A DNA stretch of 64,000 bases from Cyanidioschyzon merolae (taxonomy: Eukaryota): the NCBI GenBank assembly GCA_000091205.1, contig AP006496.2; one strand, written 5' to 3'. The position numbers and the translations under genes are program-made. Below the pieces are notes generated by a model. It saw nothing but the letters and a program-made list of their open reading frames with translations, ran no database searches and had not been told where the DNA came from. Shown here one piece after another: positions 16,396 through 62,565 of the stretch; the stretch's first letter is position 1, and every line of letters starts with the position of its first letter.

Positions 16396-17982
16396 CGAAC
16401 TGGAGAGCACGCATGCGTTCAGTTTCAGTAAGCGGCTCCCGGTAGGCTGCGGTAACTGCTCAGTTTCTTTTTGGAGTATACGGTCGGTGCAAGGAACCCG
16501 GGGATCTCCGATTGCGTGATGGTTATTGGCATGGGAGGCGGCGTCCATCACGTCGCACCAGAATTTCAAGGCGCGCCAGTGATACTGCATTCTTTCCTTT
16601 CCAGATCACGGTTCGTGCAAATGCTATTTGGTATGCCGCGCCTAGCGTGGGCGCTCGCTTCGACACCCCTACAGCTCAGTGGGTTGATGTGCTCGCTGCA
16701 CTGGCGCTGCATGCAGTGCGTACGGCGACCGCACAGCCGAACCAACTCGGGCGTCATTGACTTGCCACGCACGACCAGCGAAGCGTTTTCCAGGCGACGG
16801 TGCCCTTTGCTTCTCACGGTTGACCGATGAATCTGAACCTGATGTGCAAAGACGAGTTGGCGATGCCGCTCTCGTGCCAGACGGATTCCGTACAAGCGGA
16901 TGCTCTGGATCAGGGGGAAACGCTGCTTTAAGGTCTGGCGTTGACGTTTCTGTCGGACTGACCGGTCTGATTGCGTGCGACGTTGCGGACAGGTGAGCCA
17001 GGTCGCTGCGTTCTCTACCAGTGAGCTTCTGTGGTGGCAAAGTGGCGCCCGCCCTGCCCTGTTCCCGAACTCTCTCGACTCCCATGAACCGAGCACAACC
17101 TTCAGTCGTAGCGCATCGCTGTCCAGTGGCGCCTTGATGCCATCGCTGGCCAATGAACGCCATATCTGAAAGCACGTATGGGAGGCAGCTGGCCGAAATC
17201 GGAGGTAAGATAAAAAATGATACACGCTCCCATGGGTGTTGGTATCAGCTGCGCAATCGAGGATCTCTGGTAACTCTACATGCCCTGCGGATCGGAAGGA
17301 TCGCACGACGTTCATGGACCAGTGCGTCCGGCACGGGCACTGGTGCGCTTCCGCTCAGGGAGACAAACCACGAGCTTTTCGAGTACGTCGCACGGACGCC
17401 GCGGGTCGCTGTCTCTCCAGTTCAAGAGAGGAAACCTCAAAGGCTGCGCACTCGGAACCGTTGTTTGATCTGCTGTTCGTCGTGTGCTGGCCAAGGTTGC
17501 CTGGAACGAGCACCTTTACTCGAAAGCAGGTTCGTAACTCAAACACTGAAACTAAACCCGCGCCTCCGTCCCCTGCTCCGGAAGTTTTGGAGCCACTGGC
17601 GCAACGCTTTCCACTTCATTGTGAAGATTTTGTCAACAGGGAACGGAGGTTGCTCGTGAAAGCGATGTACTCCTGGTTACAAGCGCGCCGACAGCCGCCG
17701 CCGCCCCCTTGCGTGCACCCCAGTACACCGTGTTTCGTTGCCGCGTGGCGTCCGCTCGTGGCGGGCCTGACCACTTGTGGCGCACTAGTTCCGATATCAC
17801 GAGCTAGAACCACAGTGCGATCGCATCCGAACCGACAGCTTCGGTTAGGAGCGGTCCGGTGCGTTCGCTGTGCGAGTGACCAGGCGGATGACTCGTCGGC
17901 CCCGCTTGATCCTGCGAAACCGGATATGCAGACGAACCCGCGCTATTTCACGCGTCCCAACCGGGTTTCTACTCGACAGCGG

Positions 17983-18934: not shown

Positions 18935-20185
18935 CACCCATGCAAGAGTACGAGTAGGGAGTTCATGGAATACGGGCGTATAGTCTAAAATTTAAATCTC
19001 TTCGAGCAGTCATCAACATCAACCTTTTGAGGGTTTTTCGCAGTGGCTGCTTCCTCTTCATCATTCTCATTTGTGGCTTTACGTACACCGGACTCTGCTT
19101 TCCCACTGGCGCCGTCATTCGCTTTCGCGGGATGTTGATGGTTGCGTTGCATTCCCGATACCGCCGATTCCGGCTGTTGTCGACGCCTCTGATACGTAGA
19201 CGGAAGTTGCGATCTACACTTCGCTTTCCATGTCGATCTTCTTTGGATACAGCCTTAGTGGGCCCTCCGCAGTGATGACACCTGGGTGTTGTCAACTGTT
19301 GCTGTAGGTGCATTGCATATCGCCCTCCGAGTGCTACCCTGTGGCGCTTGAAAGCTTGTTTGACCACTCAGTACATATCCTTGACGGGTACAGATGAGCC
19401 CATACAAATGACCTCCTTCGTTTCAGCGCCCGCTGCCGTACCCCTCGATCACGGACCTGTTCTGGGCGATCCCCTGGTCAAGTACTCTGCCGGCAGCATG
19501 CCCATGCGTATGCTGCTCCATTCGATACGGGATGTGTCATACGCGATATTGTCCATAGTGAAACAAGTACCGGGAGGAGAATCTAGTCCTGGGAGGATTT
19601 CGAGAAATTTCGATCAGTTCGCGCTCCTTTCATGCCACTCGGTGGCATACAGTTCACTGGACGCGATCGCTGCGATGACTAGAGTCCGAGTCCAAGACCC
19701 GCTTTCATGCATACAGAAGTGACGCGAGCCGCTGCGAGCGCACCCATGACAGGTACCATGGTGCTGTGGAGTGCCGTTTCGTTCATAGTTACGAAGAGAG
19801 AGAATGATTTGTCTTCCGAACGGCTTCGATTGTTTGACATGACAAGTTCAGTGAACGTTTGGCATGAGCATCCAAAGCGGCCATCAACGTAAGACGTTGA
19901 GTCTCTTTAATCGTCAATCCGGCCGATCGAAACGGTGCGCCAACGAGCTGCGTTTTAACGGAGAGATCGTGGATTTGAAGCATGCTTGCGCTATGCGTAC
20001 GCCAAACATAAGGAAATGAGAAGCATGCAGGCTTACGCGAATGAATTGGATAATGGTATTCGCTATTTCACGGGAGCTTGTTGGTCGGCATCGCGAAGCG
20101 TCATGATTCCGGTATCGTGACCACGTCCAGTGACAAGGCGTCGTTGGGGTCATTGCGGTACGATGGCCAAGCATCCTAAACCTGC
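18935..20185 (-). mobile_element. Family-2 compact TnpB-like (IS605-OrfB/Fanzor2-like) element, decayed copy E, about 1.25 kb
   Basis: Collinear nucleotide homology over the whole length, aligned by eye, to copies at 33935-35130, 40670-41950, 50878-52150 and 58390-59580. Shared 5-prime terminus (aggtttaggatgc... versus ...ttagggatgcatacg) and shared 3-prime tail (aaattttagactatacgcccg versus aaactttgcatagagtactg / aaactttagtgtataccccg). Coding remnants are split over three frames (track ORFs 19914-20174, 19789-19983, 18963-19367, all minus). Confidence 0.55.
18963..19367 (-). pseudogene. TnpB-like C-terminal remnant of copy E: zinc-ribbon plus RuvC-III-like motif, catalytic Asp lost
   Basis: The 134-aa ORF contains LTTPRCHHCGG (compare TnpB TSQxCSxCG), then SVDRNFRL-RIRG (a degenerate second CxxCG), then NRRYRECNATINIPRK. 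That last segment aligns with TnpB DRDxNAAxNI and with [12 protein letters not shown] of the family-1 Fanzor copy in this window. Confidence 0.5.
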
Positions 20186-23249: not shown

Positions 23250-24279
23250 CACTGGTGACCGTCTCTTGTTGTAAAGGTCGACGCAAAGGCCCCGGAATGC
23301 GATGGTACACAGCTCGTGCATAGATTCTCTGTTTGATAGATCGGTTACACGGACCAAATATCCCAGGTTGAGGCTGAATATTGGCTTTCGGGAGAGCGTC
23401 CATCATGGTGCTAAATCCTACCTCCAAGTTCCATCACTCCTGCTTCCTCTCGTACGTACGAGTCATTTTATACGCTCCATCGTGCACCAAGTGCCTGCCT
23501 TGCTGCACCCGCCGTAGCGTCTATACCGCTGCAGCGGATCCAGCACAGAGACAGAACGGCTTGGTCGTACCACAAGGTTGTCGGCTCGTAGTGTCGTTTA
23601 TCCGACACGGGATCACAGGACATCATCATGCAGGGAGCCTGCAAGCTGTGCATATGGATGTACCGCCTGCTGTAGCGCGAACCGATATACTAGGCGTCCA
23701 CAGCGACCAGGGCGGCGACACGCAGACGCAGCATACCTGGCCCTAGTCCCAGCATAAGCAGCGTTTCAGACGAGTTGCTCAGATCTCACGACAGCACTAG
23801 ACGCTTGGCGCGAACACGAACCACGAGCCCGGTATTCTCGTCCGGCTTACGGGACCTTCCGTCTCTGAGATAATCTTTCGACAATACAGAGACCTTTTCC
23901 CCCTTTTAACGCGTACCGTACGCCTGGAATGAAATTTTTATCGATTGACGAGTTCGTGATTCGTTTCTGTGCTTGCCCGTCTCGTGCGTAGGTGCGTCGC
24001 GCACGCATCGGTCAAGAATCTCGATGGCAACGCTGCGAGATCGCGGCAACAGGCACGCCGTTCCAGCCACGTGGCGCTCTGTCCAGCGACGGAGGCACGT
24101 GCTGTCCGCGATCGCCGCATCCCCGGCAGATACGCGGACACGCCGCCCGCGTCCATCGTCAAATCGACGTCGAAGAAAAGCGCCCTGGACGCACGCACGA
24201 GGGGTTCTCGGATGCCGCGTATCACCCGGCCGGTGGCGCGATGCGTGACGTCGCCTCCGTCGAGCACCGGAAATTGCAA

Positions 24280-33934: not shown

Positions 33935-35130
33935 GTTAGGGATGCATACGTCGTTCTAGGATTCGTGGTTGAATTTGTTTTTCGGAATGGCACAGATGAC
34001 CCTCGATCACTGGAATCGGTTACGTCATGCGAATCGTGGTGATTCGCGGAAGCTCGCAAAGAATGGTTCGTAAAATGAGCGACAAAATTAATGGATTCAT
34101 CAATACGGGCCTCTATGAGTCTTTTCTTCTTACGTGTAGCATGTTCAAATCACGCATTCTTCAAGTTTTTTACGGTCTTCCTGGTCCACGGCAACTCGCG
34201 GGTGCAGCTGCTCGCGCGTCGCTCCGGATTACCGCGGATCAAATCGTACAGTCTTGCATTGACGACCGCTGTTCAAGCCTATCCCGAAAGTTGATGGAAC
34301 TTGGCAGGTCGAATAATCGATGCTGTCGAAAAACAAATTCTCCAGTCTTTCTGAATACCCACGAAACTGCATTCCATAGCAGTAGGATACCAGTCGCGGG
34401 ATCTGCTCGCAGCGGCTTCTGTCACTTCTCTTTGCACGGTAAAGCGCCCTGGACTCGCGCTTGCGTCATCGGGGCGATCGCTTCTGGCGGAGAATGCGTC
34501 AGCGCTTTGCGTGAAGGCAGCGCTGTCGGATCGGAGTTTCTCGACTTGATTTCCATCCCGGATTTTCGTCCCGTTCATTGTTTCATCATGAACAACATCG
34601 CGTTCCGACAATCCTCCATGGAATGGAACAGCGTGCGCTTGCGTGCGCAGCTGACGGAAGACTCTCCGAGGATATCTCGCAGATAGAGCTTGTGATCCTG
34701 GGGTACAGCACCGAGCGCGGAAACGGAGTAAAGCATGTAGGGAAACCTTCTCTACCCGTCCAGGGCACGTACCGTGCAGTGAAACATGCGCTCATGTGCC
34801 AGAGAACGGCCGTTGGTAGAGAAAGTATTGCGGATACATTTGGGCACTTGACCTCCACCGAGTGTCACTGCTGCGCAGGACACACCGAGGGTACCATGCA
34901 AAGAAGAAGGCGATGGGAAAAGGATCGCAGATCTCAGCTTCCGTCCGCGCAAGCGATGCATTCCTACCAACCGAACGTGGCGAAACTGGGGCTTGATCGC
35001 TGCGATCAAGCCTCAGTTTCTGCTGCTCTGCAAGGATGAAAAAATAGCTTGAACGTTGCGGTCGTCTACAAAGTGCCAAGTTGCTTCCTGCAGGCACAGC
35101 ATCTAAAACTTTGCATAGAGTACTGACCAG
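33935..35130 (+). mobile_element. Family-2 compact TnpB-like element, decayed copy A, about 1.2 kb, in the SET-gene promoter region
   Basis: 5-prime terminus ...agaggttagggatgcatacgtcgttctaggattcg nearly identical to copy C (aggggcttaggaatgcatacgtagtttccggattctcg). Frame-b remnants ISQIELVILGYSTERGNGVK (RuvC-II-like, Glu retained), TYRAVKHAL and GHLTSTECHCCAGH (TS..C..C zinc finger). The track ORFs 34027-34686 and 34578-35039 are in different frames, so a frameshift is present. Confidence 0.55.
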
Positions 35131-37046
35131 CGCGCTGAACCCGGCAAATGTTCCTGCAGCAGCGCTCCGCGCGGAATCGATACACAGCCGCACGCCATTC
35201 GCCTGCTACTGCGCCTAACCTTCGACCAGAGCAGTGTGTCTATTGTTCGCATGCGAATCACTGCTCGCAGACGGAGAACCTGGTGCAGCATCCCGACTGG
35301 AATCGACGGTCGGACTGCGCGGTGCTGAACCTGCGGGTACAATTTTGTCCGTACATACAGTCCATGGACAAAGCGCGTGTCGTGGAGCGTGCGAGCGCCT
35401 TGACGCCGTCGCGCGCTGGCGAATCAACGTATCCGTTCGTAGGGCTCGGTTGGCCCAGTTCGAGAGTGTTCACTACACGAGGCGAATCGCAGTCTCGGAC
35501 CAGTCGCTGCGTTCGCCAACGCTCGGCCTGGGAATCCGCAGCGACACTGCGACGCCATGCTGTCGCTGGAACGGAGGATCGTGTGGGCGGACCACTATCC
35601 CCGAATCAATGCTTGGATAACGGTAAAGAGGACTGGGAGGATTTGGTGCGCCATGTAGGCTTGCTTCCCGGATGCCGATAACCATCACATCATTGGGGAT
35701 CAGAGGTTAGATTCCAAAATCCTACACCATTAGGAATCACACTCGCGGTCCTGAGCACTTGGTAACCATCCGACACTCGGGGATTCCTCGTTAGATTCAA
35801 CAATGCTCTACCATGACGTCTTCCTATTGCTGGGTTCCGCCTGCGTTCGCCCGGGCGCCTCGCCGTGCTCCAGATGATCGATCATGGCGGAGCGTGCCAG
35901 CTGGAATCATCGCGAGGTATCGTGCCAGGCCCCAATATTACCTTGTGTGTCAAAGGCGGCACCGCGACGCGCACCAGCGACAGAGCCTGCAGCAAGAGAT
36001 TACTCTACGTGAGCTTCCGAGCTACGACACCTGATTTTCGCTGCAGTGCGATGCGAACACGCACGTGCGAGTGCGGGGTGTCGGACACGTGTCCTTCATC
36101 GATCGGTGAGGCGTCTCGCGCGGTGCACGCAGTGCGCTAAGTGAGCGTTCCTGGGAGATCAGGCAGGCATAAGACACGACGCGCGTGCCGCCGCTGAAGG
36201 GAAACGCGATCCTGATCTCTGGTGTGTTGTTCAGCTGTAAAAGTTGTATTCGCGCTGGAGTCGAACAAAAATATAGTTTTCAGTTCGTTTTTGTTTCAAA
36301 CTTCAAACAAGTCTAGTCAAATGTTTTTTCGCAGTATATAACAGAAGGGTTTAAAGAGCGTTCAAGAAATATAAAAATAAAAAAACGGAAAAAGGAACGC
36401 TATGAAAAAGCAAATGCACGATCCTGGAGGCCCAGGTTCGCCGGCTGCCAGAAAAAAATAGTGCCGAGTCCAGAAGAAAAGGAAGAGAAGAAGGACCGAA
36501 AGGCGGAGGTCCTACGTCGAAGGCGGCAAGAAAGACGACTGTACGACGAGATGGTGGTGAAAACCTTTCTTCTTGGACATATCAAGGATCCGTACAGGGA
36601 AAAGTTGCGAGACGCTATCGAAAAACGTGTTGCGTCATACTCCAAGAATATTATAAAGGCGTCGTCAGGACTGATGCATTTAGCAAGGGAGATGTACGAA
36701 GACGTCGCGAACATGGAAACGGTCGAGATTCCAGACGAGTTTTTCGACAAACCTTTATTCGTCAGCTGATGCTTGGCACAGGGGAAGTGCGGAGGGAAAA
36801 TGAGCGGGTGCGCGCCCTCCACGAAAAATATCCCTTTTACAGCTTCAATGGTACTCGATACAAGGGTGACCGGGGTATTTACGGCTACGGGGCGATGAAG
36901 TACCCCACGAACCTGAAGAACCATTTGACAGAGAACTTCGAACGTTTCATGGTACGCGCCGTGTTTGCGCTGTATCCGGACATCTCTCGCAATGGAAAAT
37001 GGGCGATGATCAACGGCATCACGAGCGATCGCAAGCATGAAGATGA

Positions 37047-38618
37047 GGTCGAATTTGTCGACAAGAAAGCGCCAAACGAGAACACGAATGAAGCTTCTGT
37101 AATCCGTGCGGTTATACAAGAGCATCGTGCGGTACTGGGGCTGGCGTATCCAACAGACAAGATATCAGCGTTGAAAAAGATAAGGAAAGATACTATCGCC
37201 TCATCCTGCGATATTTCGTGTTTCTGGACCGAGAGCTCGAACGCAAGGCAGAAACGAAGCTAAGTGAAGGAAAAAATGAAGAGTGGGAGAGACGGAAGGC
37301 TGCCCTAATGGGGAAGCGCTTCGATGTGGTTCCAGTGTGCAAGATCAAGTCACATTTTGTGACTATCGACTCCGGCGTCCTCTACGGCATCATGAGGGAC
37401 ATCAGTCCGGAGTTCAGTGTCAGCAGGGAGAACTTCACCGGCGAAAACCGGGAGACGTACTTGAAGAACATCTCCAATTTCAAACGTCTGAGAGTGAACA
37501 AGCAAAAGTTGTTCACTGGGATGATCGAAACCGATGGAGTAGCCTTGTGTGTACACTATCGGCGGTTGAAGAAAGATCGGCCAGTTCCGCCCTCGGCTGC
37601 GCCCGTGACGAAGGGTGCAGAAAAGAAAGAGGCGGATCCTGAGACGCAGGAGGTGGAGGATAACGACTTTGTCGTTGAAGTGACGAAGGATGAAGATGAG
37701 AAGGAGGCGGATCCTGCGACACAGAAGGTGCAAGATAACGACCTTGTCGTTGATGCGGCGAAGGATGAAGATGAGAAGGAGGCGGATCCTGAGACGCAGG
37801 AGGTGGAGGATAACGACTTTGTCGTTTGCGCGGACCCTGGGAACACGAATATCATCACCATCGCAGCACCGAAGCGTGCGGAAGATGGTACTGATGGTAA
37901 CGTACGTCAGAAAGACATGCGAGTTTTGAGGATCTCGAGAGCGAGATACTATCGAGAATCGGGAATAATGAATGCGAGGAAGAAAATTGCTACATGGAAT
38001 GCAGGAATGAAGGATCACCTGGAAGCTTTGAGTGAGGTGACTAGCCGAAGAGCGGACTTTCAAGCTTTTCGGAAATTCATGGAAGTTTGCATTGTCCATT
38101 GGGATGCACTGTGGGAGGAGTATACCAAGGCCCGGTGGGCTCGTTTGCGTATGAATTTGTATTGTGGGAAGCAGCGGGGGTTCGCGAATTTATTCAATAA
38201 CTTGAGCGCCTTGAAGGAGGATGAAAATCAGAGGCTCGTCGTAGCATACGGAGCAGGGCGCTGGAAGACCCAAAAAGGGACTACTCCAGCTCCAACGACA
38301 AGAACATACAGGGAGTGCGCACGGCGTTTCGTTACGATACCTGTAGATGAGTTCCGAACGTCCTATGCACACCATGAACTGGGTTGTACACTTCAGAGAG
38401 TCGAGATGGAAAAGTGCCAGAGGAGCGCTGAGGAAATAGCAAAGTACGGACCGCTGACGGAGGCGCAAACGGAAAGGAGTGCGAAAGTTCGTGGACTACT
38501 CGCTTTAGTGAGTATAACTCCGGACGGGAAGAAACGTATGGAGTTTGTGAACCGAGATTTTAATGCCGCAATCAATCTACGGAAATGTGCGGTACTGGAC
38601 AAGAGACCTCCAGAGTAG
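37047..38618 (+). CDS. Intact C-terminal about 520-aa portion of the Fanzor/TnpB-like protein containing the split RuvC-like nuclease and zinc-ribbon motifs
   Basis: RuvC-I-like [17 protein letters not shown] (Asp in ADPG, about nt 37824-37845). RuvC-II region [17 protein letters not shown]...TRTYREC lacks the canonical Glu, as reported for Fanzor1 proteins with a relocated glutamate (from memory). RTS zinc-ribbon region [13 protein letters not shown]...EMEKC at about 38355. Ruv[18 protein letters not shown] at about 38550 (TnpB DRDxNAAxNI). Stop at 38616-38618. Confidence 0.7.
37626..37826 (+). repeat. 75-bp (25-aa) tandem repeat x2.7 inside the Fanzor ORF, immediately N-terminal to the RuvC-I motif
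   Basis: Protein repeat [25 protein letters not shown] / [25 protein letters not shown] / [22 protein letters not shown]. The nucleotide unit ggcggatcctgagacgcaggaggtggaggataacgactttgtcgtt... recurs with a 75-nt period. Confidence 0.8.
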
Positions 38619-38750
38619 ACAAGAGAGAACTTTATTGGACAACCTCTCAAAGTCGAACTATATGAGAAAATGTTGGAAGCAGTAGTGGGTGGCCGGTCCA
38701 AAAAGACGGGCAGGCGTCTGCACATCAGTCAGAGACGATTTGTCTAAGGC
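38560..38750 (+). ncRNA. Candidate omega-RNA / right-end region of the Fanzor element (3-prime end of ORF plus about 130-nt conserved tail)
   Basis: By analogy with TnpB/Fanzor systems, the guide-RNA scaffold overlaps the ORF 3-prime end and the transposon right end. This tail (ggacaacctctcaaagtcgaactatatgagaaaatgttggaagcag...ggtggccggtccaaaaagacgggcaggcgtctgcacatcag) is conserved in the second family-1 fragment at 54860-54990, although that copy's coding sequence is destroyed. Confidence 0.3.
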
Positions 38751-38843
38751 GCGTTCGCCGCCATTACTGTACGCCGCCGACGTCGTTCGACTCTCGAAAG
38801 GCGTTTAGTCGTGGCGACAAGTCTGCAGTTCCAGTTGCAAGCA

Positions 38844-40669: not shown

Positions 40670-41950
40670 GGAACAGGTACACTATCTCGGCTGCGCACTC
40701 TCAAGCCTGGACATGTCGTCAAGGTCATCAATATTAGCCGTCGTGGGCTTTTTCAGCAACAGCTTCCTCTTACCCTCCATAAACTCCGGCATTCAATTCG
40801 CTGGCCTCTTGCGTCCTTCCCGTTTCGTTGTTTGCTGTCGATTGATGCTGATGCCAGCCATACTGTGCCGATATCGCTGCTTCCGTCTGGTGTCAACGTA
40901 TTTCGTGCACAGACGCAAGTTGCGATCCAAATTCGTTTGTCTGTTGCACCCACTATGTCTAGTGCACCGGTGCACCCTGCGCAGCGATGTCCATTGACTG
41001 CAGTCAGATACGCAGATATGTCCACAGCGCCTACTTCTCCAAGTGCCACGCTGGGGCGCGTGAACGCTCGCTTCGTCCATTGGTGCTCGTCGGCGACGTG
41101 TAGAGAGGGCCTAACTGTTTGCGCTTATCTGTTTTCATGCCCAATACCGTACCCTGCGCTCACGGGCCTCTTCGGGGTGTTACCCAAAGCGAACTTGGTG
41201 CACGTCGCACACGCAAGCGATCGCTCTTCCATTCTTTTGAGGATTTGTGGAAATCGATTTTGTTCATAGTAGAGAGAGTTTCGGAAGGAAATGCACGCTG
41301 ATCAACAAGATATGAAATTTTGATCCGTCTTCACTTCCTTCGTGCAGAGCGCCGATGCATGATCCACGGGAAGCGATCCCAGCGATGACTAGAGTCCCAG
41401 GCCAAGACCTTTTTCCACGCAAAAAGAAGAAACGGGAGCCACTGGGAAGTTTCCTCCTGAGAGGGATCATATTGGTGCTGTCGAATCCGGCCTCGTCGAT
41501 AGACATGAGCGGAGGCGAATTTGCCTTTGTAACGAAATCGAGTATTGCACTCGAGCAGTTCAGTGAACATTCAGCAGGAGCGCGTGAACAGAACATCAAC
41601 GGACAATGTCGAGCTTTTCCCTTTCGTATTGCTGGCCCCACACCTTGCCTCGAAACGGAAAGATCAGAACCATGAAGAATATGTGATTTGAGAATGCAAA
41701 CTGTAGGAAAACGAGAAGACTCGAAACCTATAGATATGCACTGGATTCAAAAGTCGGTCAGCGGGGGAACCCATGTTCGAGGGCGTCGCGAATCATCTCG
41801 ATTCCGGTGCCATATCGAAATCCAGCGGCAAAATCCTTGGAGGAGCCATTCCGAATAACCAAAATCCACGAAAATCCTCGAACTCCATAGGAATTCGTAA
41901 CCTCTTTTCGCCGCTCTTTTCCATCTAGAGGCTATGCATCGAAAAATCCT
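40670..41950 (-). mobile_element. Family-2 compact TnpB-like element, decayed copy B, inverted orientation, about 1.28 kb
   Basis: The reverse complement is collinear with copy A: ...gtcatcgctgggatcgcttcccgtggatcatgcatcggcgctctgcacgaagg versus A gtcatcggggcgatcgcttctggcggagaatgcgtcagcgctttgcgtgaagg; tactatgaacaaaatcgatttccacaaatcctcaaaagaatggaagagcg versus A catcatgaacaacatcgcgttccgacaatcctccatggaatggaacagcg. The 3-prime tail aatattgatgaccttgacgacatg matches E gatgttgatgactgctcgaagag. A small insertion lies near the 5-prime end (about 41900). Confidence 0.5.
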
Positions 41951-46409: not shown

Positions 46410-46569
46410 AAACCAACACTAGCAACCGCAGCGACAAACGCTTCCCCTAAAAGATGCTCTCGTTTTGGGAAACGCTCAGTGCTTGCCCGTGCGCAGGGCA
46501 AGCATTTATCTCGCGAACAGAGAAAGGAATAGCAAGCTGTCCCAGCACGCGCAGAGCAAGAGACTTGAG

Positions 46570-47215
46570 AGCACTGCGATGCAGCACTCTGGAAGATTCC
46601 ATGCGACATGTACTCGTGCACGCATCCGCGGGTGCACGCATTCTAGGACACGTGTATGTATGTGCATAGGCCTGCATGCACTTGATCCGTGCATCAAGAG
46701 CACTGCGATGCAGCACTCTGGAAGATTCCATGCGACATGTACTCGTGCACGCATCCGCAGGTGCACGCATTCTAGGACACGTGTATGTATGTGCATAGGC
46801 CTGCATGCACTTGATCCGTGCATCAAGAGCACTGCGATGCAGCACTCTGGAAGATTCCATGCGACATGTACTCGTGCACGCATCCGCGGGTGCACGCATT
46901 CTAGGACACGTGTATGTATGTGCATAGGCCTGCATGCACTTGATCCGTGCATCAAGAGCACTGCGATGCAGCACTCTGGAAGATTCCATGCGACATGTAC
47001 TCGTGCACGCATCCGCGGGTGCACGCATTCTAGGACACGTGTATGTATGTGCATAGGCCTGCATGCACTTGATCCGTGCATCAAGAGCACTGCGATGCAG
47101 CACTCTGGAAGATTCCATGCGACATGTACTCGTGCACGCATCCGCAGGTGCACGCATTCTAGGACACGTGTATGTATGTGCATAGGCCTGCATGCACTTG
47201 ATCCGTGCATCAAGA
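46570..47215. repeat. Minisatellite: 129-bp unit x5 tandem array
   Basis: The unit agcactgcgatgcagcactctggaagattccatgcgacatgtactcgtgcacgcatccgc(g/a)ggtgcacgcattctaggacacgtgtatgtatgtgcataggcctgcatgcacttgatccgtgcatcaag restarts at 46570, 46699, 46828, 46957 and 47086. Because 129 = 43 codons, the long repetitive ORFs on both strands here (46447-47430, 46465-47391, 46506-47213) are artefacts. Confidence 0.9.
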
Positions 47216-47765
47216 GCGTCCTCTATCGACCGCTCGCCTTCATGTACCGATGCTTTCTCTTGCGTACATCCTCGGGATCGCATCAACGCCACAATGGCAA
47301 CCGTACCAACAGATTGCCGTCCAACGTCATCTGCGGATTGACACACCAGAAACAATGCGGTTTGGAGTTGGTTGACACACTTCAACGATAACGGTTCTGA
47401 GACTTTGGCGTAATGCCCATTGTGCGGCAAGTTTAGCAGCCTGGACTTGTCTCAATATCGAATAGGTCTCGGTGAGGCGGCGTCAAACACGAAATACAAA
47501 CGGACGCGGCTTCGTGACGGTGCGCACGGGGAGTTGGCCTTCTGCTTCCGTCGGTCGGACACGAGGCTGAGCCTCGGGAGTCTCAGTTAGACTCTGCACG
47601 CTACACGAGCTAGCAGAAACACTGGACCAATTTTTAGCGTGCTATCGGACGCTTACTGAACAAGTGCACGTTGCGGACGAGTGAGACGCTGGGCTTGTCG
47701 TCGGCCGCGGGCGGAGGCCATACTCTTTGGTTCAGAGTCGACTGGGAAAGGCCCTGCCAACGTGA

Positions 47766-50877: not shown

Positions 50878-52150
50878 GCTTAGGAATGCATACGTAGTTT
50901 CCGGATTCTCGATCAGGGTTTCAAAGTTGAGTCTTCGACGCTTTGCCTTTGGCATTCGATGCGTCATCAGAATGATGATGATTCTCGAAGCACGTGAACA
51001 GGGCTTTGTAAAGTAATCGACATTATTGTCCACTGCATACGTACAAGTATTCAATCTTCTCATGCCCTGATGTGGAACATGCGCAAATCACGATTGCTTC
51101 GAGTTTTCGATTTTTCTGGTTCGAGGCAAGTCGTGGGCGCAGCCATGCGTATCGTTGCATTGACGACGAAAGAAGAAACGTGATGTTGTCCCGTAATGAC
51201 TTGTTCATACGCTCATGTCGAAATTTCATGAAACATGTCACTTCATTCGATGATAGACTTTGTTAGAAATACGAATACTCTAGTCTCTGTGGTCATCGAC
51301 GAAACTGCATTCGATACCTGCACAATACTTCTCATGGGATATGCTCCCAGAGGCTCCTATGTCTTCAGAGTGCGCCGAAAATCCGCTTGGGATCGGACTT
51401 ATCCTAGTGACCGCTTCCAGTCGAGAGGGCGTCACCGGTTTGCACGAAGAAAGCCCAGACGGTTCGCCAACCCTCGACTTGATCTCTAGCCCGGATTTTC
51501 ATTCTGGTACATGTTTCACTGTCGATAAAATCTGGTTCCGTCAATGCCTTATGGAATGGGAAAGCACGGGCTCGCGCGTGCGACGGACAGGGTACTCCTC
51601 CGGGGGATCACGCAGACGACGACTATATTCGCAGTACATTGCATCGGGTGCTTCGAGCGAGCAGGGCAAAGATGGAAGACGTCTGTGCCCGTCGAGTGCA
51701 GGTACCGAGCCGTGAAGCAAGTATTGGCGTACCATAGGCCGGACCTTGCAGGAGTCATTGTGATGAACATACGTGAAAACCTGACAACAATCAAGTGTCA
51801 CCTGAACAAGAGGCACACCGAGCTGTTTACAACGACAATGAGCATCGCAAGTGAGGTGTAGATCGAAACGGCCCCCGCAATGCATAGAGTGATTTGATAA
51901 CAGATAGAATCAGGGGAATCGGGTCTTCAATGCCGTCATCGACATCCTTTGACTGCTGGCAACGGAGCTGGAGGCAAATGCAGAGACCGATGTATTCAAG
52001 GCGGAAGCGAAGCGCGACGAGAAGGAAGCATTCACGGAACCAGCCCACTTACGTTGGTATCGATGATACTGGGAGGAGGTCAGAGCTTTGGGGTGAACGC
52101 CCGAGTCAGACGACCCTTTCCATGTTACCCTACCATGGACTCAGGAAAAC
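50878..52150 (+). mobile_element. Family-2 compact TnpB-like element, decayed copy C, about 1.25 kb
   Basis: 5-prime terminus cttaggaatgcatacgtagtttccggattctcg (compare copy A). Remnants in several frames: SCIDDERRNV / RNTNTLVSVVIDETAF (N-terminal region, versus A SCIDDRCSS / KTNSPVFLNTHETAF), PVECRYRAVKQVLAYH, ENLTTIKCHLNKRHTE (zinc-finger remnant) and NRVFNAVIDIL-stop (RuvC-III-like, at about 51917-51950). Confidence 0.5.
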
Positions 52151-52589: not shown

Positions 52590-54149
52590 CTAGCAGCATT
52601 CTGCAGCATCAATCGCTGCACTCGTACTCCCAGAAGTGACCGTTTCATCGCCTCGCTCACACAACGAGCATCTGGGCTGCTGCTGCTGCTGCTGCGGCGG
52701 CGGCGGCGGCGGCGGCGGCGAGCTCTTTGCGAACAGAATCGACATCATCCCTTTCCGCTTCCAATAAAGAATCCCCATCATCAAAAATCCAGCACCGAGG
52801 ACCAGCGAGACGGCAACGACGACAAACCACGGCCAGGAGGGAGCCGTTTCCTCATAGGCTGGAATCGCAATGTTCATTCCGAAAAAATCCGCCGGAATCA
52901 GCATTATCAGGATCGTACAGAACCACAGATGACAGCTGATGTTCACTGTCCATAGCCGAGTCTGTTTCGCTGCGAGCGCAATCACTGTCAGTTCTTCAAT
53001 GTTGTGCAGCTGCTTCCGCAAGGCAGCTGCAGACATTTCATGATCATGGCACTGCCATAGCGCCCATTCAATCAGCGTGTAGACGCTCTCTTGAGTCGAG
53101 GCAAATGATGCCCGCATCCCAGCGTCATCGCCGGGGATGCACTCTCCGACCCAGGCTGCGACGGTTTCCGCAATACCGTCGTCGAGGCTCTCCTCCAGGC
53201 AGACACGGAGGTTCCGGGCTCGCAGCGCTACGAGTGCCACTTGTCGTGCTGCGCCTTGTAAAAGCCGCGGAGCCGCGGACTTTTCCACGGTATTGATGTG
53301 CAGTTGGCCGTGCTGCAGCTGCTGTTTGATCCACTGCAGCTTGCGCTCATTCGACTGAACGCAGGTATGGAGCATCGCTGCAAGGGCACGAAATCCAAAC
53401 GCCTCTCCTGGATCTGTTTCTGGCCCCGTGAGCCGACCAGACACCATTCGATGCAGGATGCGAGCATGCTCGCAGTCGAAATCCTGTATCAGCAGGCGTT
53501 CGGGTTCCAGAACAGCGCAGAGATGACGATGAAGCGCTGCGATGATCATACGGGGTCGAACTCGAATGGTCGGCTGCATCTGGTACACCGGCATGAAAAG
53601 TCGACGATCCACCGAATGGATGAAGATGTTTCGAATCTCTGCGCCTGATGCGCTCGAGTTTGAGTGGGGTATCCGCGTCGTCGTCCTCTTCGTCTTTGCC
53701 GTCGCTGAAGCTATACAGCATTCGTCATTGCGACATGGATCTTTTGAGCTGTACGCTGAGCACGAAAGCGTTTCGTAATGTTCGCGCGCGCCTTGCTTGC
53801 TTTCGACTCGACCGGCTCGAGGAACGCGATGCTCCGCGAACATACACAGACCGGCGCACGGCTGCGTCTCGCAGTAACATGTTCGCGACCAGATGACCTG
53901 TCCCTGATAGCCCGACGCTCTGTATTCGTGAAATCGATAGTTGAGCACGAGCAGTGCCTCCTGGCCGACGGCAGAGAGCCCCGAAACTCCGCCAGGGAAA
54001 GCGCCGGCACTCGCGAGCGTCTCGACGGAGCTGGCGAGTCGACTCGCTGGATTCTGCGCTATGCTCCGCAGAGGCCCAGACTCGAGACCATCGAAGATCG
54101 TTTTCCGCGGCTTGTTCTCTGACGCTGCAGTGAACCGCCGCTGAGGCAT
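52590..54149 (-). CDS. CorA/MRS2-family Mg2+ transporter
   Basis: C-terminal two-TM core with the diagnostic GMN motif: LWFCTILIMLIPADFFGMNIAIPAYEE...WPWFVVVAVSLVLGAGFLMMGILYWKRK, followed by a P/Q-rich tail. Full ORF from true ATG at 54149. The first about 185 aa are Cys/Ser-rich and could be a presequence or non-coding, with an alternative in-frame ATG at 53594. Confidence 0.65.
   Translation of the reverse strand: MPQRRFTAASENKPRKTIFDGLESGPLRSIAQNPASRLASSVETLASAGAFPGGVSGLSAVGQEALLVLNYRFHEYRASGYQGQVIWSRTCYCETQPCAGLCMFAEHRVPRAGRVESKQGAREHYETLSCSAYSSKDPCRNDECCIASATAKTKRTTTRIPHSNSSASGAEIRNIFIHSVDRRLFMPVYQMQPTIRVRPRMIIAALHRHLCAVLEPERLLIQDFDCEHARILHRMVSGRLTGPETDPGEAFGFRALAAMLHTCVQSNERKLQWIKQQLQHGQLHINTVEKSAAPRLLQGAARQVALVALRARNLRVCLEESLDDGIAETVAAWVGECIPGDDAGMRASFASTQESVYTLIEWALWQCHDHEMSAAALRKQLHNIEELTVIALAAKQTRLWTVNISCHLWFCTILIMLIPADFFGMNIAIPAYEETAPSWPWFVVVAVSLVLGAGFLMMGILYWKRKGMMSILFAKSSPPPPPPPPQQQQQQPRCSLCERGDETVTSGSTSAAIDAAECC
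52675..52721. repeat. (GCT)n(GCG)n compound trinucleotide repeat encoding the poly-P/poly-Q tail of the CorA-like protein
   Basis: gctgctgctgctgctgcggcggcggcggcggcggcggcg read directly. Confidence 0.85.
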
Positions 54150-54534
54150 ACTGTGGCGAAAGTCTTCAGCGAGCCTGCTTTCTACGGCGACTCACACTTG
54201 CAGTCCTTGACTCGTGCAACAACTGGTGCGTATCAAAGTGCCAAAATGATGAGTCAAAGAAAAAGACCTTCAAACACCAGGAAACGCCTTATTGGTAAAC
54301 AGAAAAGTCTTTTACCAAGAAAGGAACGAGTGTCGAGTGGATGGACGGATTGCAGCCCCACATTGTTGCCCGAGCATGCGCCGGTGCTGCAGGCGACAGC
54401 GCCGTACCTCGGGTCGCCTCTCAGGTTCTTAGAGTCTTTCATTTGAATCGTGTTTCAATCCTCAAGTAAGTGTAATCAAGTGATTTTTCAGGGTTTGTAG
54501 CTGGAGCATTCAGAGTGTGTTCTTTTTAAAAAAT

Positions 54535-54990
54535 AAACTTACGGGAATGGAAGTGAAGGATCCTGGAGGCCGTCATCGCCGGATGCCAGAGAAAAAGGAC
54601 GAAAATTTCGATCTTCTCGCCGACCATCGAGGGAGAAGTGCAAGTGACGAAGAAGAAGAAGAACAGGGTAGGTAGATGACAAAAGATGTTTGTCCGACAG
54701 GATGATGACGAGACTGTAGTCGAATAGAGGCCACGAGTTCTGGCAATCCTTGCGATGGTGAGTTCAACCAGAGGCAATGCACGCATGGAGATCGTGAACT
54801 TTGACTTTAACGCCACCATCAATACCAGACGATGTGTGGTGCTGAAGACGACTGCTGACGATATGAGGCCATCTATGTTTGTTGGGAAACCTCTCAGATG
54901 CGAAGTGTGCTAGGAGAAACTGAAAACGGCTGCAGGCGGCCAGTCAAAAAAGGCCGGGAGGCGTCTGAGAGGGAGTATATTTCTTTACAC
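54535..54990 (+). mobile_element. Family-1 (Fanzor1-like) 3-prime-terminal fragment, degraded: C-terminal coding remnant plus conserved 3-prime tail
   Basis: The frame containing ...AILAMVSSTRGNARMEIVNFDFNATINTRRCVVL...stop (54911-54913) aligns with the intact copy [34 protein letters not shown]. An upstream in-frame stop and frame changes are present (VIAGCQRKR versus ELGCTLQRV; RMPEKKDEN versus [10 protein letters not shown]). The tail ggaaacctctcagatgcgaagtgtgctaggagaaactgaaaacgg...ggcggccagtcaaaaaaggccgggaggcgtctgagagggag matches 38640-38745 of the intact element. AT-richer than the flanks. Confidence 0.55.
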
Positions 54991-56223
54991 TCTATGGATC
55001 TACAGTTTTTTCGTTTCATTGAACACAAGGGTGCTTTTCCTTTTGATGGACAGAACGCTCAACATGACCAGGGACGCTGTATTGCGGTATGGATTCGGGT
55101 AACCGGTAATGCATCTGTCGGTCCATACCCTTGGTTCAAGTTCTGGAAGCCACTCTTCGTACTTCCCCACGACGATACTGGTCATTCCGTACGTTCCATC
55201 GTGCGACGTTTCTCCTATGAGTTTTCGCAATAGTGCTTTTACAGTGCTGTTGCCAGCGCTGAATGTCCTCTGGCTGCCGGGGTGCTCGGATCACCGTCCA
55301 GGGTGTTGTCGGTCGCACCGCGATGCCACTTGGGGAGCCACTCGGCATGCGCTTGGCGCGCTTCTGTTGTCCCTGCTTCTAAGGTCTTCGGTGACCTCGG
55401 CATCCAACGAGCGCCTTGACTACACCACGCTCTAGTCGTCGGGATGTAACCTGAAGCAGCATCGTACGCGGAAGAGGTGAGGTTTACGTCCAGTGAACCG
55501 CGAGCATTTGCATATGCCCAGGGTGGGTGCCTCGACGCATCGACCCAGCGCCATCGACACGTGTGTGCTGTGTGTGTGTGTGTAGCACACGAGGATCTAA
55601 AGCGTTAAACGAATGCCGCAGTTCTTCGCTGAAGAAGCACCACATACGCGACGTATTAAGCATGAGGCTCCCATCGACACGGGTGCTTTTGCGTTACGGT
55701 GGCACCCAGCCCGGCATAGCGTTAGCGCAACGACACTGTCGCTCCGTTTCGAAAATACGTATGGTTTGTGGCAGTGGGTGGGCCCTGAAGATATGGTGCG
55801 GGAACCGCGGACGCTCTCCCGAAGGTCGATGACAACTGCGCAGTCGGGGATCCGCGGACTCGGGCAAACCTTCCGTCCATGAAGAGAAACAGGCGCAACG
55901 CCCAATCGGGCCGCATCGTGTCTCAACCGCAAGCTTCTGGTGCACTTCAGCTGCGCCCAGTTCGCATTTGCTGGGACTCGATAGGTGTTGGTATTCGACG
56001 GGTCGTACTGAGCAACGACATCGAGTCGCCATACAGGGCACTGCCAGCGTTTTCGTAGTTGCTGTCCCATTCAGGAGTTTATACGCGGCAAAACGCGCGC
56101 TTCGGACTCGGCACCGGCAAGTCGTCGCTACCACCGGGCGTCTTGCCGAGAAACTGGGCTTGGCATCGATTTCGCTGCAGTGAGTGGCCTTTATAAAAGT
56201 ATTCTTACATAGTACTGGTGCAC

Positions 56224-56682
56224 ATGTGGCGAACTGTACTGGTGCGTGGAAGCACAGGCGCGCTGGTGTGGCGCGCCGTCACCCCGTCGTTGCCCGGGCT
56301 CGTGCCGAGCACCCCGCACTTGACCACGCCTTTGCCGCTGTTGGGGCGAAGCTTTGCAACCGACGCCCTCGCACTCAAAGACGGGTTGATTCGGTATCGA
56401 ATGCACTATCCCGACGGACAGGTACCGCCCAAGGTTGACCGGAACCTTGTGAGGTCCAAGTGGCACTCCGACGCCATGGAGCTCATCGAGCAGGTTCCGC
56501 CGCTTGTCGTCGAACGCGAGGTCATCGCATGCAACGGTGGACCCAACGTTGCCATGGGTCATCCCATCGAATACATTCGTGTGGATGCTGCGGATCCAGC
56601 ACCCAGCGTGTGCAAGTACTGCGGTTTGCGCTACATCCATCGGCACGCTGCCACCGCAGAGGCTGGATCCGAGCATCCCTAA
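56224..56682 (+). CDS. NDUFS6: NADH dehydrogenase [ubiquinone] iron-sulfur protein 6 (complex I 13-kDa zinc-binding subunit)
   Basis: C-terminal ELIEQVPPLVVEREVIACNGGPNVAMGHPIEYIRVDAADPAPSVCKYCGLRYIHRH matches the NDUFS6 zinc-finger domain (IAEQPPIEV.GR.VACDGG...GHPKVYINLDK....CGYCGLQF..HHH). N-terminal MWRTVLVRGSTGALVWRAV... looks like a mitochondrial presequence. The track ORF starts at GTG 56218. First ATG at 56224. Confidence 0.75.
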   Translation: MWRTVLVRGSTGALVWRAVTPSLPGLVPSTPHLTTPLPLLGRSFATDALALKDGLIRYRMHYPDGQVPPKVDRNLVRSKWHSDAMELIEQVPPLVVEREVIACNGGPNVAMGHPIEYIRVDAADPAPSVCKYCGLRYIHRHAATAEAGSEHP

Positions 56683-58389: not shown

Positions 58390-59580
58390 CCCGGCGATGC
58401 CGAGATACATCCTCATTTGTCTGTGACGCAGTCCTGAAACCTTACTGGTATTCGCTGCCACCGGTTACCTACAGGCAGCGTTTGGCACTAGCAGACGCAG
58501 CCGCGGATGCACCCACCCTGCAAATATGATCTTTTTTTGACTGGCAGAACGTTTATAGGAACTGGGTGTCCGATTGTGCGATGTGGATCGGCAGCACAGA
58601 TGCAAACATCGTAGAGAGCGGCGACTTGGACGAGGCGCACTCTTCGACGAACGGTGAACAGGTGCGTGCAACAGCCATCTCACTACACTGTAAGAAAGAA
58701 ACGCACCAGGTGGAGTAACTTGGATGTAAAGAATAATGTATGGGTCTCTTTCCAAAGTCGTGAACAGCAGCCTGTTCGGAATTTTCGTGCGACTGTTTCG
58801 CTTTCCGGTCTGCGATATCCGATTTTTACTACGGGGTCTCTCCTTTCCTTCCAGCTCTGTTGCTCGCAGTCAAAGAATACTGATTTCAGCGTTAGGGTCC
58901 CGACTTCACTGCTTCGAGGTGTGGTCGACGCATATTGTCCCCAGTCGGAAGCTTCAATCTAAGCTTCAGCTGCCGTTTCGGTCCTCTGCCGTAGACAGCG
59001 ACGGTGCGCTCTTCGCATCGATAACCCTTGACTGTGCTTAGGGGTTGTTGTTCGTGCACCGCAACCACTCTTTCGACGGGGTCACCCTGGAGAATCCCGT
59101 GATCGTGGAATACTGTACCATGTGCGAAACGAAGCATGGCATCGAGACGAGCCTTGTGTACCCATCAACCGCATGCACCGAGCGATGCAGCAAGCGTTCA
59201 GGCGTCATAGACCGGACCTCGGACGCCGAGAAGCGGTGAACATACCCGACAATCTGACCATAGTCAAGTGTCACCGAGGCAAAATGCGCACCGATCAGTC
59301 TACAAATAAGATAAGAATGGCAAGCGAAGCGCACATTCCAACGACCACCTATGCATACCCTGTGTTGACAACAGCCAGAATTAGGGAAATCGCGACTTTC
59401 ATGCTATCATCAGCATCTTTTTCTGCGTATAACAATGCTGGGGCCAAGGAGAAACCTGCGAAATGAAAGCCGGAGTTAAGACAAAGGACAAGGGAGCATT
59501 CGCAGAACTTGCCCACAAATGCTTGTGCTGGTTACACGTAGAAAAGACCCAAACTTTAGTGTATACCCCGAGTTAGCCAG
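58390..59580 (+). mobile_element. Family-2 compact TnpB-like element, decayed copy D, about 1.2 kb
   Basis: Collinear with copies A, C and E. Examples: ggagtaacttggatgtaaagaataatgtatgggtctctttccaaagtcg versus A ggaacttggcaggtcgaataatcgatgctgtcgaaaaacaaattctcc; zinc-finger remnant DNLTIVKCHRGKMRTDQ; RuvC-III-like NRDFHAIISI with Asp retained (about 59385-59415). 3-prime tail aaagacccaaactttagtgtataccccgag versus E aagagatttaaattttagactatacgcccg. Confidence 0.5.
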
Positions 59581-62149: not shown

Positions 62150-62565
62150 TGATCTCAGACCGGAGAAGAATATCTTATCATCCAGGATCGAGCATTGAGT
62201 GCACTTTTGATTACACAAGGAGCAATCGTGTAGCATTCACGGATTACATACCGCAATGCGTCTCCTTGCATATATCGTTCATCGGTAGAAGAATATCTTA
62301 TCATCCAGGATCGATCATTGAGTGCACTTTTGATTACACAAGGAGCAATCGTGTAGCATTCACGGATCACATATCGCAATGCGTCTCCTTGCATACATCG
62401 TTCATCGGTAGAAGAATATCTTATGATCCAGGATCGATCATTGAGTGCACTTTTGATTACACAAGGAGCAATCGTGTAGCATTCACGGATCACATACCGC
62501 AATGCGTCTCCTTGCATACATCGTTCATCGGTAGAAGAATATCTTATCATCCAGGATCGAGCATT
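62150..62565. repeat. Tandem repeat: 123-bp unit x about 3.4, about 350 bp upstream of the LL-DAP aminotransferase gene
   Basis: The unit gaagaatatcttatcatccaggatcgagcattgagtgcacttttgattacacaaggagcaatcgtgtagcattcacggattacataccgcaatgcgtctccttgcatatatcgttcatcggta restarts at 62165, 62288, 62411 and 62534. Because 123 = 41 codons, the track ORFs on both strands here (62134-62688, 62155-62550) are artefacts. Confidence 0.85.

What the first reader, a model, noticed from the sequence alone, without database searches (positions are those of the whole stretch)
54535..54990. Second, degraded family-1 Fanzor fragment upstream of the CorA-like gene
In a locally AT-rich patch the frame ...AILAMVSSTRGNARMEIVNFDFNATINTRRCVVL-stop aligns with the intact copy [34 protein letters not shown]. 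Further upstream, frame-shifted stretches (VIAGCQRKR; RMPEKKDEN) match the zinc-ribbon region. Together with the conserved tail this is a 3-prime-terminal relic of the same family, so the family has been mobile in this genome more than once. It lies in the divergent intergenic region between the CorA-like gene (start 54149) and NDUFS6 (start 56224).
Basis: seen in the sequence. Interest (0 to 1): 0.55.

Follow-up and report, generated by a model that had tools for sequence, protein, structure and literature searches.

The report
Dead, internally deleted Fanzor1 transposon copy
This is an ordinary decayed fossil of the already published CMe-1A (Fanzor1) transposon of the red alga Cyanidioschyzon merolae: a copy that lost its whole middle, keeps only its head and tail, and shows no sign of doing anything.

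Summary
The similarity is real. The window is Cyanidioschyzon merolae 10D: its CorA-like protein is 100% identical to CYME_CMN319C. The repeat is CMe-1A, the Fanzor1 element published by Bao & Jurka in 2013 (3169-bp consensus, 734-aa ORF, about 150 copies).

Against that consensus the relic forms two abutting, collinear blocks on the + strand:
- 54428-54719 matches consensus 784-1068 (5' UTR plus codons 1-55), E 8e-32.
- 54721-54971 matches consensus 2834-3087 (codons 643-728), E 2e-27.

It is therefore a copy with a roughly 1.77-kb internal deletion, not just a 3' relic. The deletion removed RuvC-I, RuvC-II and the zinc-finger region.

- There is no stop after "VVL".
- "VIAGCQRKR" and "RMPEKKDEN" are two frames of one stretch that matches the element's 5' end, not the zinc ribbon.

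The relic is dead. Its start codon is ATG>ACG, it has frameshifts and two TAG stops, and the RD motif reads FD. It is 26-31% diverged from the consensus. Between strains it varies at least as fast as its flanks. No second copy with the same junction was found.

This is an already known family and the finding is of low interest.

The parts
54428..54719 (+). 5' block of the relic. It matches CMe-1A consensus 784-1068: about 120 bp of 5' UTR plus codons 1-55 of the 734-aa Fanzor1 ORF. The ancestral start codon is ATG>ACG at 54541-54543. There is a 1-nt deletion just after the DPGG codons (about 54572), further indels, and the conserved 'DE(M/T)VV(K/E)' motif at 54707-54724.
   Evidence: nhmmer E 7.6e-32 and the alignment. 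blastn to L002 gives 74% identity, E 8e-28. Identity to the consensus is 74%, K2P 0.32.
54720..54727 (+). Deletion junction, where consensus position about 1068 meets about 2834 (codon 55/56 fused to codon 643/644). The frame is kept across the join, but TAG sits at 54725-54727. In the consensus both breakpoints carry GAAAG (…GGTGAAAGCC… and …ATGGAAAGGAG…).
   Evidence: The two nhmmer blocks abut at 54719/54721. The translation reads DDDETVVE*RPRVLAILAMVS. The microhomology was read from the consensus text; the deletion mechanism is inference.
54721..54971 (+). 3' block of the relic. It matches CMe-1A consensus 2834-3087, codons 643-728, which includes the RuvC-III 'NRDFNAAIN' motif. Here the motif reads NFDFNATIN, with R>F at 54800-54802. 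There is a 3-nt deletion and a TAG at 54911-54913.
   Evidence: nhmmer E 1.7e-27. tblastn against CMe-1 gives 49% identity over 90 aa. Identity to the consensus is 69%, K2P 0.41.
54972..55048 (+). Possibly the eroded last about 82 bp of the element (consensus 3088-3169). The length fits and 'TTTTCCTTTTGA' sits where the consensus has 'TTTTTCTTTTGA', but the similarity is not significant.
   Evidence: Global alignment. The local score was reached by 134 of 1000 shuffles.
55049..55238 (+). Separate fragment matching the first about 190 bp of CMe-1A/TE-N2_CMe (consensus 5-188). It lies head-to-tail directly after the relic.
   Evidence: nhmmer E 1.1e-11 in the window, E 3.6e-13 in the intergenic region.
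55696..55861 (-). Weak, inverted fragment of the same 5'-terminal segment (consensus 20-167).
   Evidence: nhmmer E 0.0069 in the window, E 2e-4 in the intergenic region.
36133..38802 (+). Reference long copy of CMe-1A (consensus 648-3168). It lacks the 5' TE-N2_CMe part and is a pseudogene: 7-nt, 1-nt and 1-nt deletions, TAG at 38616-38618, and a 150-nt repeat expansion.

Best explanation
The locus is a dead fossil of a CMe-1A (Fanzor1) transposon copy in the CMN319C (CorA/MRS2-like) to NDUFS6 intergenic region of Cyanidioschyzon merolae 10D.

Shown:
- It is homologous to the published CMe-1A consensus in two collinear, same-strand, abutting blocks: consensus 784-1068 and 2834-3087.
- It therefore carries only the 5' UTR, codons 1-55 and codons 643-728 of a 734-codon gene.
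- Everything that makes a Fanzor nuclease is gone: the REC/WED part, the RuvC-I Asp, the RuvC-II Glu and the zinc-finger region.
- What is left is riddled with disabling changes.

Inferred history:
1. A CMe-1A copy inserted here in the Cyanidioschyzon lineage.
2. About 1.77 kb was lost in a single deletion between two GAAAG microhomologies, by replication slippage or microhomology-mediated end joining.
3. The remnant has since drifted neutrally to 26-31% divergence from the consensus.

It encodes no protein. It most likely gives no usable omega-RNA, because the last about 80 bp of the element, which in TnpB/Fanzor systems adjoins the guide, is unrecognisable. It has no detectable function today.
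For: - Host identity: the window's CorA-like protein is 100% identical to CYME_CMN319C.
- Family identity: the consensus DNA and protein were taken from the supplement of PMC3627910. nhmmer hits are E 7.6e-32 and 1.7e-27, abutting at 54719/54721. Shuffle z-scores are 57-65. The protein mapping is codons 1-55 plus 643-728.
- Lesions: ATG>ACG, a frameshift after DPGG, TAG at 54725-54727 and at 54911-54913, and RD>FD.
- Divergence: 74% and 69% identity to the consensus, against 81% and 90% for the long copy over the same segments.
- No constraint: against strains that are 98.5-99.3% identical overall, the relic shows 1.5-2.6% differences and its neighbours 0-1.3%.
- One-off deletion: no other copy with this junction was found in the window, in 64 kb of related contigs other than the orthologous locus, in a two-motif pattern scan of JGI metagenome contigs, or as a fused ORF among 204 protein hits.
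- Sister genus: the syntenic intergenic region of Cyanidiococcus yangmingshanensis (1345 bp) has no CMe-1A trace.
Against: - The complete C. merolae genome could not be searched, so further copies with the same junction cannot be excluded.
- The order of events (insertion first, then deletion) is inferred, not shown.
- Strain polymorphism counts are small, 8-14 differences.
- Absence of the relic in Cyanidiococcus is weak evidence, because intergenic DNA is unalignable at that distance.
- No expression data were available.
Confidence: 0.87

Rival explanations
1. A non-autonomous mini-element. On this reading the internal deletion happened first, and the roughly 0.55-0.6-kb head-plus-tail derivative was then mobilised in trans to this site, as happens with MITE-like deletion derivatives of DNA transposons.
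For: - Both sub-terminal regions of the element are retained in the correct order and orientation.
- The join keeps the reading frame.
- CMe-1A already has a short relative, TE-N2_CMe, with about 70 copies.
Against: - The relic lacks consensus 1-783 entirely. It also lacks about 135 bp of the 5' end seen in the 5'-shorter long copy, which starts at consensus 648.
- Its 3' terminal 82 bp is not significantly recognisable.
- No second copy with the junction was found in the window, in held loci, in the metagenome pattern scan or among the protein hits.
Confidence: 0.07
2. Two independent fragments. On this reading a 5' fragment and a 3' fragment from separate CMe-1A insertions or truncations simply lie next to each other.
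For: The intergenic region holds other CMe-1A/TE-N2 fragments at 55049-55238 and 55696-55861, so it has been hit more than once.
Against: The two blocks are on the same strand, in element order, separated by 1-6 bp and joined in frame. Their divergence is similar, K2P 0.32 and 0.41. A single deletion is far more economical.
Confidence: 0.03
3. An exapted sequence. On this reading the remnant now serves the host, for example as part of the CMN319C or NDUFS6 promoter or as an omega-RNA-like non-coding RNA.
For: - It lies 279 bp upstream of the CMN319C start codon in a divergent promoter region.
- The 3' block corresponds to the part of the element where TnpB/Fanzor omega-RNAs are encoded. This rests on general knowledge and on PMC11423790.
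Against: - It varies between strains at least as fast as its surroundings.
- Rfam gives nothing.
- The predicted stem formed by GGCGTCTG with downstream sequence in full copies is broken, because the relic's downstream arm is missing or eroded.
- No catalytically competent partner is encoded here.
Confidence: 0.03
4. Chance similarity in an AT-rich patch.
For: None after testing.
Against: E-values range from 1e-27 to 1e-32, and scores lie 57-65 SD above dinucleotide shuffles.
Confidence: 0

Closest known systems
CMe-1A, the Fanzor1-encoding element of Cyanidioschyzon merolae (Bao & Jurka 2013, Mob DNA 4:12; PMC3627910)
   Same: Direct nucleotide homology to its consensus, in the same host genome. 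The remaining codons match the CMe-1 protein at residues 1-55 and 643-728.
   Different: The relic lacks consensus 1-783 and 1069-2833. Its last about 82 bp is unrecognisable. It is 26-31% diverged, against about 20% typical of the family.
TE-N2_CMe, the 635-bp non-autonomous relative that equals the 5' 635 bp of CMe-1A
   Same: It belongs to the same element complex. A fragment of its first about 190 bp lies directly downstream of the relic at 55049-55238.
   Different: The relic itself contains none of consensus 1-635, so it is not a TE-N2_CMe copy.
Internally deleted copies of DNA transposons, for example the CRe-1/2/3 Fanzor1 loci with internal deletions shown by Bao & Jurka (Figure 4 legend)
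   Same: Head and tail are retained and the middle is lost.
   Different: Here there is no evidence that the deleted form was ever mobilised. Both extreme termini are missing or eroded.
Characterised Fanzor1 RNA-guided nucleases (SpuFz1, GtFz1, PpFz1; PMC11423790)
   Same: The parent family shares the RuvC D...E...D layout. A distant family member, P0044, aligns to SpuFz1 (8GKH) across RuvC-I and RuvC-II with E 0.001.
   Different: The relic keeps only the RuvC-III segment, and that is mutated (RD>FD). No omega-RNA has been defined for CMe-1A.

Membership tests
CMe-1A transposon family (C. merolae) | Significant nucleotide homology to the published 3169-bp consensus | tested here: met
   nhmmer E 7.6e-32 (consensus 784-1068) and 1.7e-27 (consensus 2834-3087). 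Shuffle z-scores are 57-65.
CMe-1A transposon family (C. merolae) | Host genome is C. merolae | tested here: met
   The window's CorA-like ORF is 100% identical to CYME_CMN319C of strain 10D.
CMe-1A transposon family (C. merolae) | Complete element with both termini (consensus 1 and 3169) | tested here: not met
   Homology starts at consensus 784. It ends significantly at 3087, and the last 82 bp is not significant.
Functional Fanzor1 gene (TnpB-like RNA-guided nuclease) | The motif D-X(125,275)-[TS][TS]-X-X-[zinc finger]-X(5,50)-RD (Bao & Jurka 2013), that is RuvC-I Asp, RuvC-II Glu region, zinc finger and RuvC-III Asp | tested here: not met
   Codons 56-642 are deleted. They carry GADPGNTN, VDEFRTS and the HH..C..C region. 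Only the last motif remains, and it reads FD instead of RD.
Functional Fanzor1 gene (TnpB-like RNA-guided nuclease) | Open reading frame | tested here: not met
   Start ATG>ACG, a frameshift after DPGG, and TAG at 54725-54727 and 54911-54913.
Fanzor1 (the parent family as a whole) | Sequence homology to experimentally characterised Fanzor1 or TnpB | tested here: inconclusive
   - A family profile against PDB sequences gave no Fanzor hit.
- The distant member P0044 hits SpuFz1 8GKH at E 0.001, and Pfam Cas12f1-like_TNB at E 6.7e-5, below the cut-off.
- The AlphaFold model was unusable, pLDDT 40.
- The classification as Fanzor1 rests mainly on PMC3627910.
Fanzor1 (the parent family as a whole) | Omega-RNA encoded at the 3' end of the element, with the guide beyond the right end | not testable with these tools
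   - Rfam gave no match.
- RNAalifold on five similar sequences gave no meaningful covariation.
- RNA data are needed.
Mobilised non-autonomous deletion derivative (MITE-like) | Several copies sharing the same internal junction at different genomic sites | tested here: not met
   - The junction was found only at this locus and its orthologues in other strains.
- The metagenome pattern scan gave two unrelated bacterial hits.
- No fused ORF appeared among 204 protein hits.
- The full C. merolae genome was not searchable.
TE-N2_CMe | Homology to consensus 1-635 of CMe-1A | tested here: not met
   The relic covers only consensus 784-1068 and 2834-3087. The neighbouring fragment 55049-55238 does match consensus 5-188.

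The most novel reading that the evidence does not exclude
The head-to-tail arrangement could be a preserved right-end/left-end junction. The relic's presumed 3' terminus lies at about 55040-55048, followed at once by the 5' terminus of a TE-N2_CMe/CMe-1A fragment at 55049 (consensus position 5). Such a junction could come from a tandem insertion or an integrated circle junction. If it recurs genome-wide, it would give a first clue to the still unknown transposition mechanism and target choice of CMe-1A, an element with no TIRs, no TSDs and no transposase. Alternatively, the head-plus-tail remnant could be one member of a mobilised Fanzor mini-element family.
Probability: 0.06. Interest if true: 0.4.

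Novelty: already known. Interest (0 to 1): 0.07.

Why it matters
It matters little. The locus is one of the roughly 150 decayed CMe-1A copies already reported for this fully sequenced genome.

The practical value is for annotation:
- The relic should be masked as 54428-54971, perhaps to 55048, on the + strand.
- It should be described as an internal-deletion derivative.
- The 111-aa ORF 54898-55233, which gene callers pick up across the TE fragments, is most likely spurious.
- The 'intact' copy at 36.1-38.8 kb should not be treated as a working Fanzor gene.

Tried and rejected
- Pfam on the window's long-copy protein and the relic translation: no hit.
- Profile of seven family members against PDB sequences: no Fanzor hit.
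- AlphaFold2 on P0001 with a 44-sequence alignment: mean pLDDT 40, too poor for a fold search, so none was run.
- Rfam on 54200-55300: only a sub-threshold snoRNA match, E 0.71.
- RNAalifold of the 3' 340 nt of four full copies plus the relic: the sequences are too alike for covariation, so nothing was claimed.
- Metagenome pattern GATCCTGGAGGCC-N{216,246}-GAYTTTAAYGCC, meant to find copies with the same deletion: two hits, both unrelated bacterial sequence.
- Exact-protein look-ups of RPL37a, of the window's CorA-like protein and of P0053: not on record.
- Alignment of 54972-55048 to the last 82 bp of the consensus: not significant.
- Search with a reconstructed fusion protein (codons 1-55 plus 644-734): 204 hits. 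All 120 listed hits had a best local alignment covering at most 82% of the query, and the eight highest-coverage ones plus one more that I inspected were C-terminal fragments. None was a fusion.
- TAG reassignment as an explanation for the in-frame TAGs: set aside without a test of stop-codon usage. The consensus has sense codons at those sites, the copies also carry frameshifts, and homologues have TCG/TTG there.

Full report
**Observation.** I read 54000-56400 and the proposed reference copy.

The tail similarity holds. tblastx aligns relic 54773-54967 with 38526-38720 over 65 codons without gaps, at 48% identity and E 9e-17. Gapped tblastn extends this to 87 residues at 45% identity.

Two details in the finding are wrong:
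- The relic frame does not stop after 'RRCVVL'. It reads ...CVVLKTTADDMRPSMFVGKPLRCEVC and first stops at TAG 54911-54913. Similarity continues past that stop, and past the TAG at 38616-38618 in the long copy.
- 'VIAGCQRKR' and 'RMPEKKDEN' are two frames of the same roughly 35 nt. At nucleotide level that stretch matches the very beginning of the element: 54551-54596 against 36412-36458 at 80% identity, not the zinc-ribbon region.

**Source of the window.** Homologues of the long-copy protein are numerous in JGI hot-spring metagenomes. The CorA-like protein next to the relic belongs to a 90% cluster that contains CYME_CMN319C of Cyanidioschyzon merolae 10D, and it is 100% identical to that protein. 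The window is therefore C. merolae chromosome DNA.

Bao & Jurka (2013, PMC3627910) described one Fanzor1 family in this genome, CMe-1A. It has a 3169-bp consensus, a single-exon 734-aa ORF, about 150 copies each about 80% identical to the consensus, no TIRs and undetermined TSDs. Its 5' 635 bp equals a separate short element, TE-N2_CMe, with about 70 copies. I took the consensus DNA from their Additional file 2 and used it as the reference.

**Anatomy of the relic.** nhmmer with the consensus against the whole window (alignments) gives two blocks on the + strand:

| Window | Consensus | E-value |
|---|---|---|
| 54428-54719 | 784-1068 | 7.6e-32 |
| 54721-54971 | 2834-3087 | 1.7e-27 |

An independent profile built from four long copies gave the same picture.

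The consensus ORF starts at nucleotide 906. The relic therefore holds about 120 bp of 5' UTR, codons 1-55 and codons 643-728. The blocks abut and the join keeps the frame...DDDETVVE*RPRVLAILAMVS....

The missing 1.77 kb carried the N-terminal two-thirds of the protein. That includes the RuvC-I Asp (GADPGNTN), the RuvC-II region (VDEFRTS) and the degenerate zinc-finger segment.

In the consensus both breakpoints contain GAAAG. A single microhomology-mediated deletion is therefore the simplest origin. This is inference.

**State of decay.**
- The ancestral ATG is ACG (54541-54543).
- One nucleotide is lost right after the DPGG codons.
- There are further indels.
- TAG sits at the junction (54725-54727) and at 54911-54913.
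- The conserved RD of RuvC-III reads FD.

Identity to the consensus is 74% for the 5' block and 69% for the 3' block (K2P 0.32 and 0.41). The long copy scores 81% and 90% over the same segments. The relic is thus older or more eroded than the typical family member.

The last 77 bp before the next repeat (54972-55048) has the right length to be the final 82 bp of the element, and it ends in TTTTCCTTTTGA where the consensus has TTTTTCTTTTGA. The similarity is not significant: 134 of 1000 shuffles reach the observed score.

**Surroundings.**
- Directly after that stretch, 55049-55238 matches consensus 5-188 on the same strand (E 1e-11).
- 55696-55861 matches consensus 20-167 weakly on the other strand.
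- The 2.07-kb intergenic region is therefore largely a graveyard of CMe-1A/TE-N2_CMe fragments.
- No tRNA and no Rfam family is present.

**Is it constrained or used?** An exact look-up of the chance 111-aa ORF 54898-55233 recovered the same locus in four contigs. P0057 gave two more. All are 98.4-99.3% identical to the window and all contain the relic.

Per-region differences between strains:

| Region | Differences |
|---|---|
| Relic | 1.5-2.6% |
| Remaining spacer | 0.3-1.0% |
| CorA-like CDS | 0.7-1.3% |
| NDUFS6 CDS | 0% |

The counts are small, but there is no sign of purifying selection on the relic.

In Cyanidiococcus yangmingshanensis the gene order TRAPP - NDUFS6 - CorA/MRS2 - MFS is conserved. 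The intergenic region there is 1345 bp and has no CMe-1A trace.

**Was the deleted form ever mobile?** No second copy with the same junction turned up in any of these searches:
- the window;
- 64 kb of related contigs;
- a JGI metagenome scan with a two-motif pattern spanning the deletion, which gave two unrelated bacterial hits;
- the protein database, queried with a reconstructed fusion ORF. Of 204 hits, the 120 listed had best alignments covering at most 82% of the query, and the nine inspected were C-terminal fragments of ordinary degraded copies.

The complete C. merolae genome could not be searched, so this remains the main open point.

**Family membership.**
- The relic is a member of the CMe-1A repeat family by direct homology.
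- It is not a Fanzor gene in any functional sense.
- For the parent family, my own tests of relatedness to characterised Fanzors were weak. There was no Pfam hit for the window protein and no PDB hit for a family profile. The AlphaFold model was unusable.
- The distant member P0044 gave E 0.001 to SpuFz1 (8GKH) across RuvC-I and RuvC-II, and a sub-threshold Cas12f1-like TNB hit.
- The Fanzor1 label therefore rests mainly on the published classification.
- Fanzor1 proteins are omega-RNA-guided nucleases, with the scaffold followed by the guide at the RNA's 3' end (PMC11423790). No omega-RNA is defined for CMe-1A, and RNAalifold on the few near-identical copies available was uninformative.

**Verdict.** This is a dead, internally deleted copy of a published transposon family in a published genome. 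It is already known in kind and of low interest.

Noticed in passing
window 36133-38802: The 'intact' reference copy is itself a pseudogene relative to the published consensus. It has a 7-nt deletion near 36453 and 1-nt deletions near 36750 and 37173. It has an in-frame TAG at 38616-38618 (codon 692) and a 150-nt expansion of a 75-bp acidic repeat (three units at 37605-37826 against one in the consensus). It also lacks consensus 1-647, the TE-N2_CMe part.
   Followed up: yes
window 23334-24004: A solo TE-N2_CMe-like copy: consensus 4-665, about 77% identity, E 1.5e-110, with no Fanzor part attached.
   Followed up: partly
window 16498-16676 (+), 35570-35709 (-), 55049-55238 (+), 55696-55861 (-): Four short fragments all correspond to just the first about 190 bp of the CMe-1A/TE-N2_CMe consensus. 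Two lie near the relic and one lies about 420 bp upstream of the long copy. They may be a separate short repeat or a preferred truncation point.
   Followed up: no
window 54972-55049: The relic's presumed 3' end is followed at once by the 5' end (consensus position 5) of another CMe-1A/TE-N2 fragment, a head-to-tail arrangement. The terminal alignment is not significant.
   Followed up: partly
window 19339-19895 / 34251-34804 (inverted) / 41365-41581 / 51266-51616, and 51684-52048 / 59157-59516: These are two further dispersed repeat families at 66-69% identity, unrelated to CMe-1A by nhmmer. One lies just downstream of the CorA-like gene.
   Followed up: no
window 46568-47217 and 62164-62565: Near-perfect tandem repeats with periods of about 129 bp and about 123 bp, at 97-100% identity.
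   Followed up: no
window 54898-55233 (+): A 111-aa ORF spans the relic's tail and the next TE fragment. Gene callers call it as a gene in four metagenome or Logan contigs. It has no Pfam hit on record in those contigs and is most likely spurious.
   Followed up: partly
window about 55283 (L007, L008 and L009 contig ends): Three independent metagenome contigs all break at the position equivalent to 55283, just past the TE-N2-like fragment. This is presumably an assembly break caused by the repeat.
   Followed up: no
window 55560-55585: A (GT)n microsatellite lies in the same intergenic region.
   Followed up: no
L013 (Cyanidiococcus yangmingshanensis JANCYV010000008.1): Synteny TRAPP - NDUFS6 - CorA/MRS2 - MFS/BT1 is conserved with C. 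merolae. The CorA-like proteins are nevertheless only 39% identical.
   Followed up: partly
protein hits P0063-P0182: The best 120 hits listed, of 204, are all short ORFs (85-251 aa), and many are exactly 92 or 113 aa. Those sizes fit starts at internal Met643 or Met622 of the CMe-1 ORF, which suggests many degraded copies keep an open 3' end. One hit, P0107, reads through into a Tim10/DDP zinc-finger host gene.
   Followed up: no
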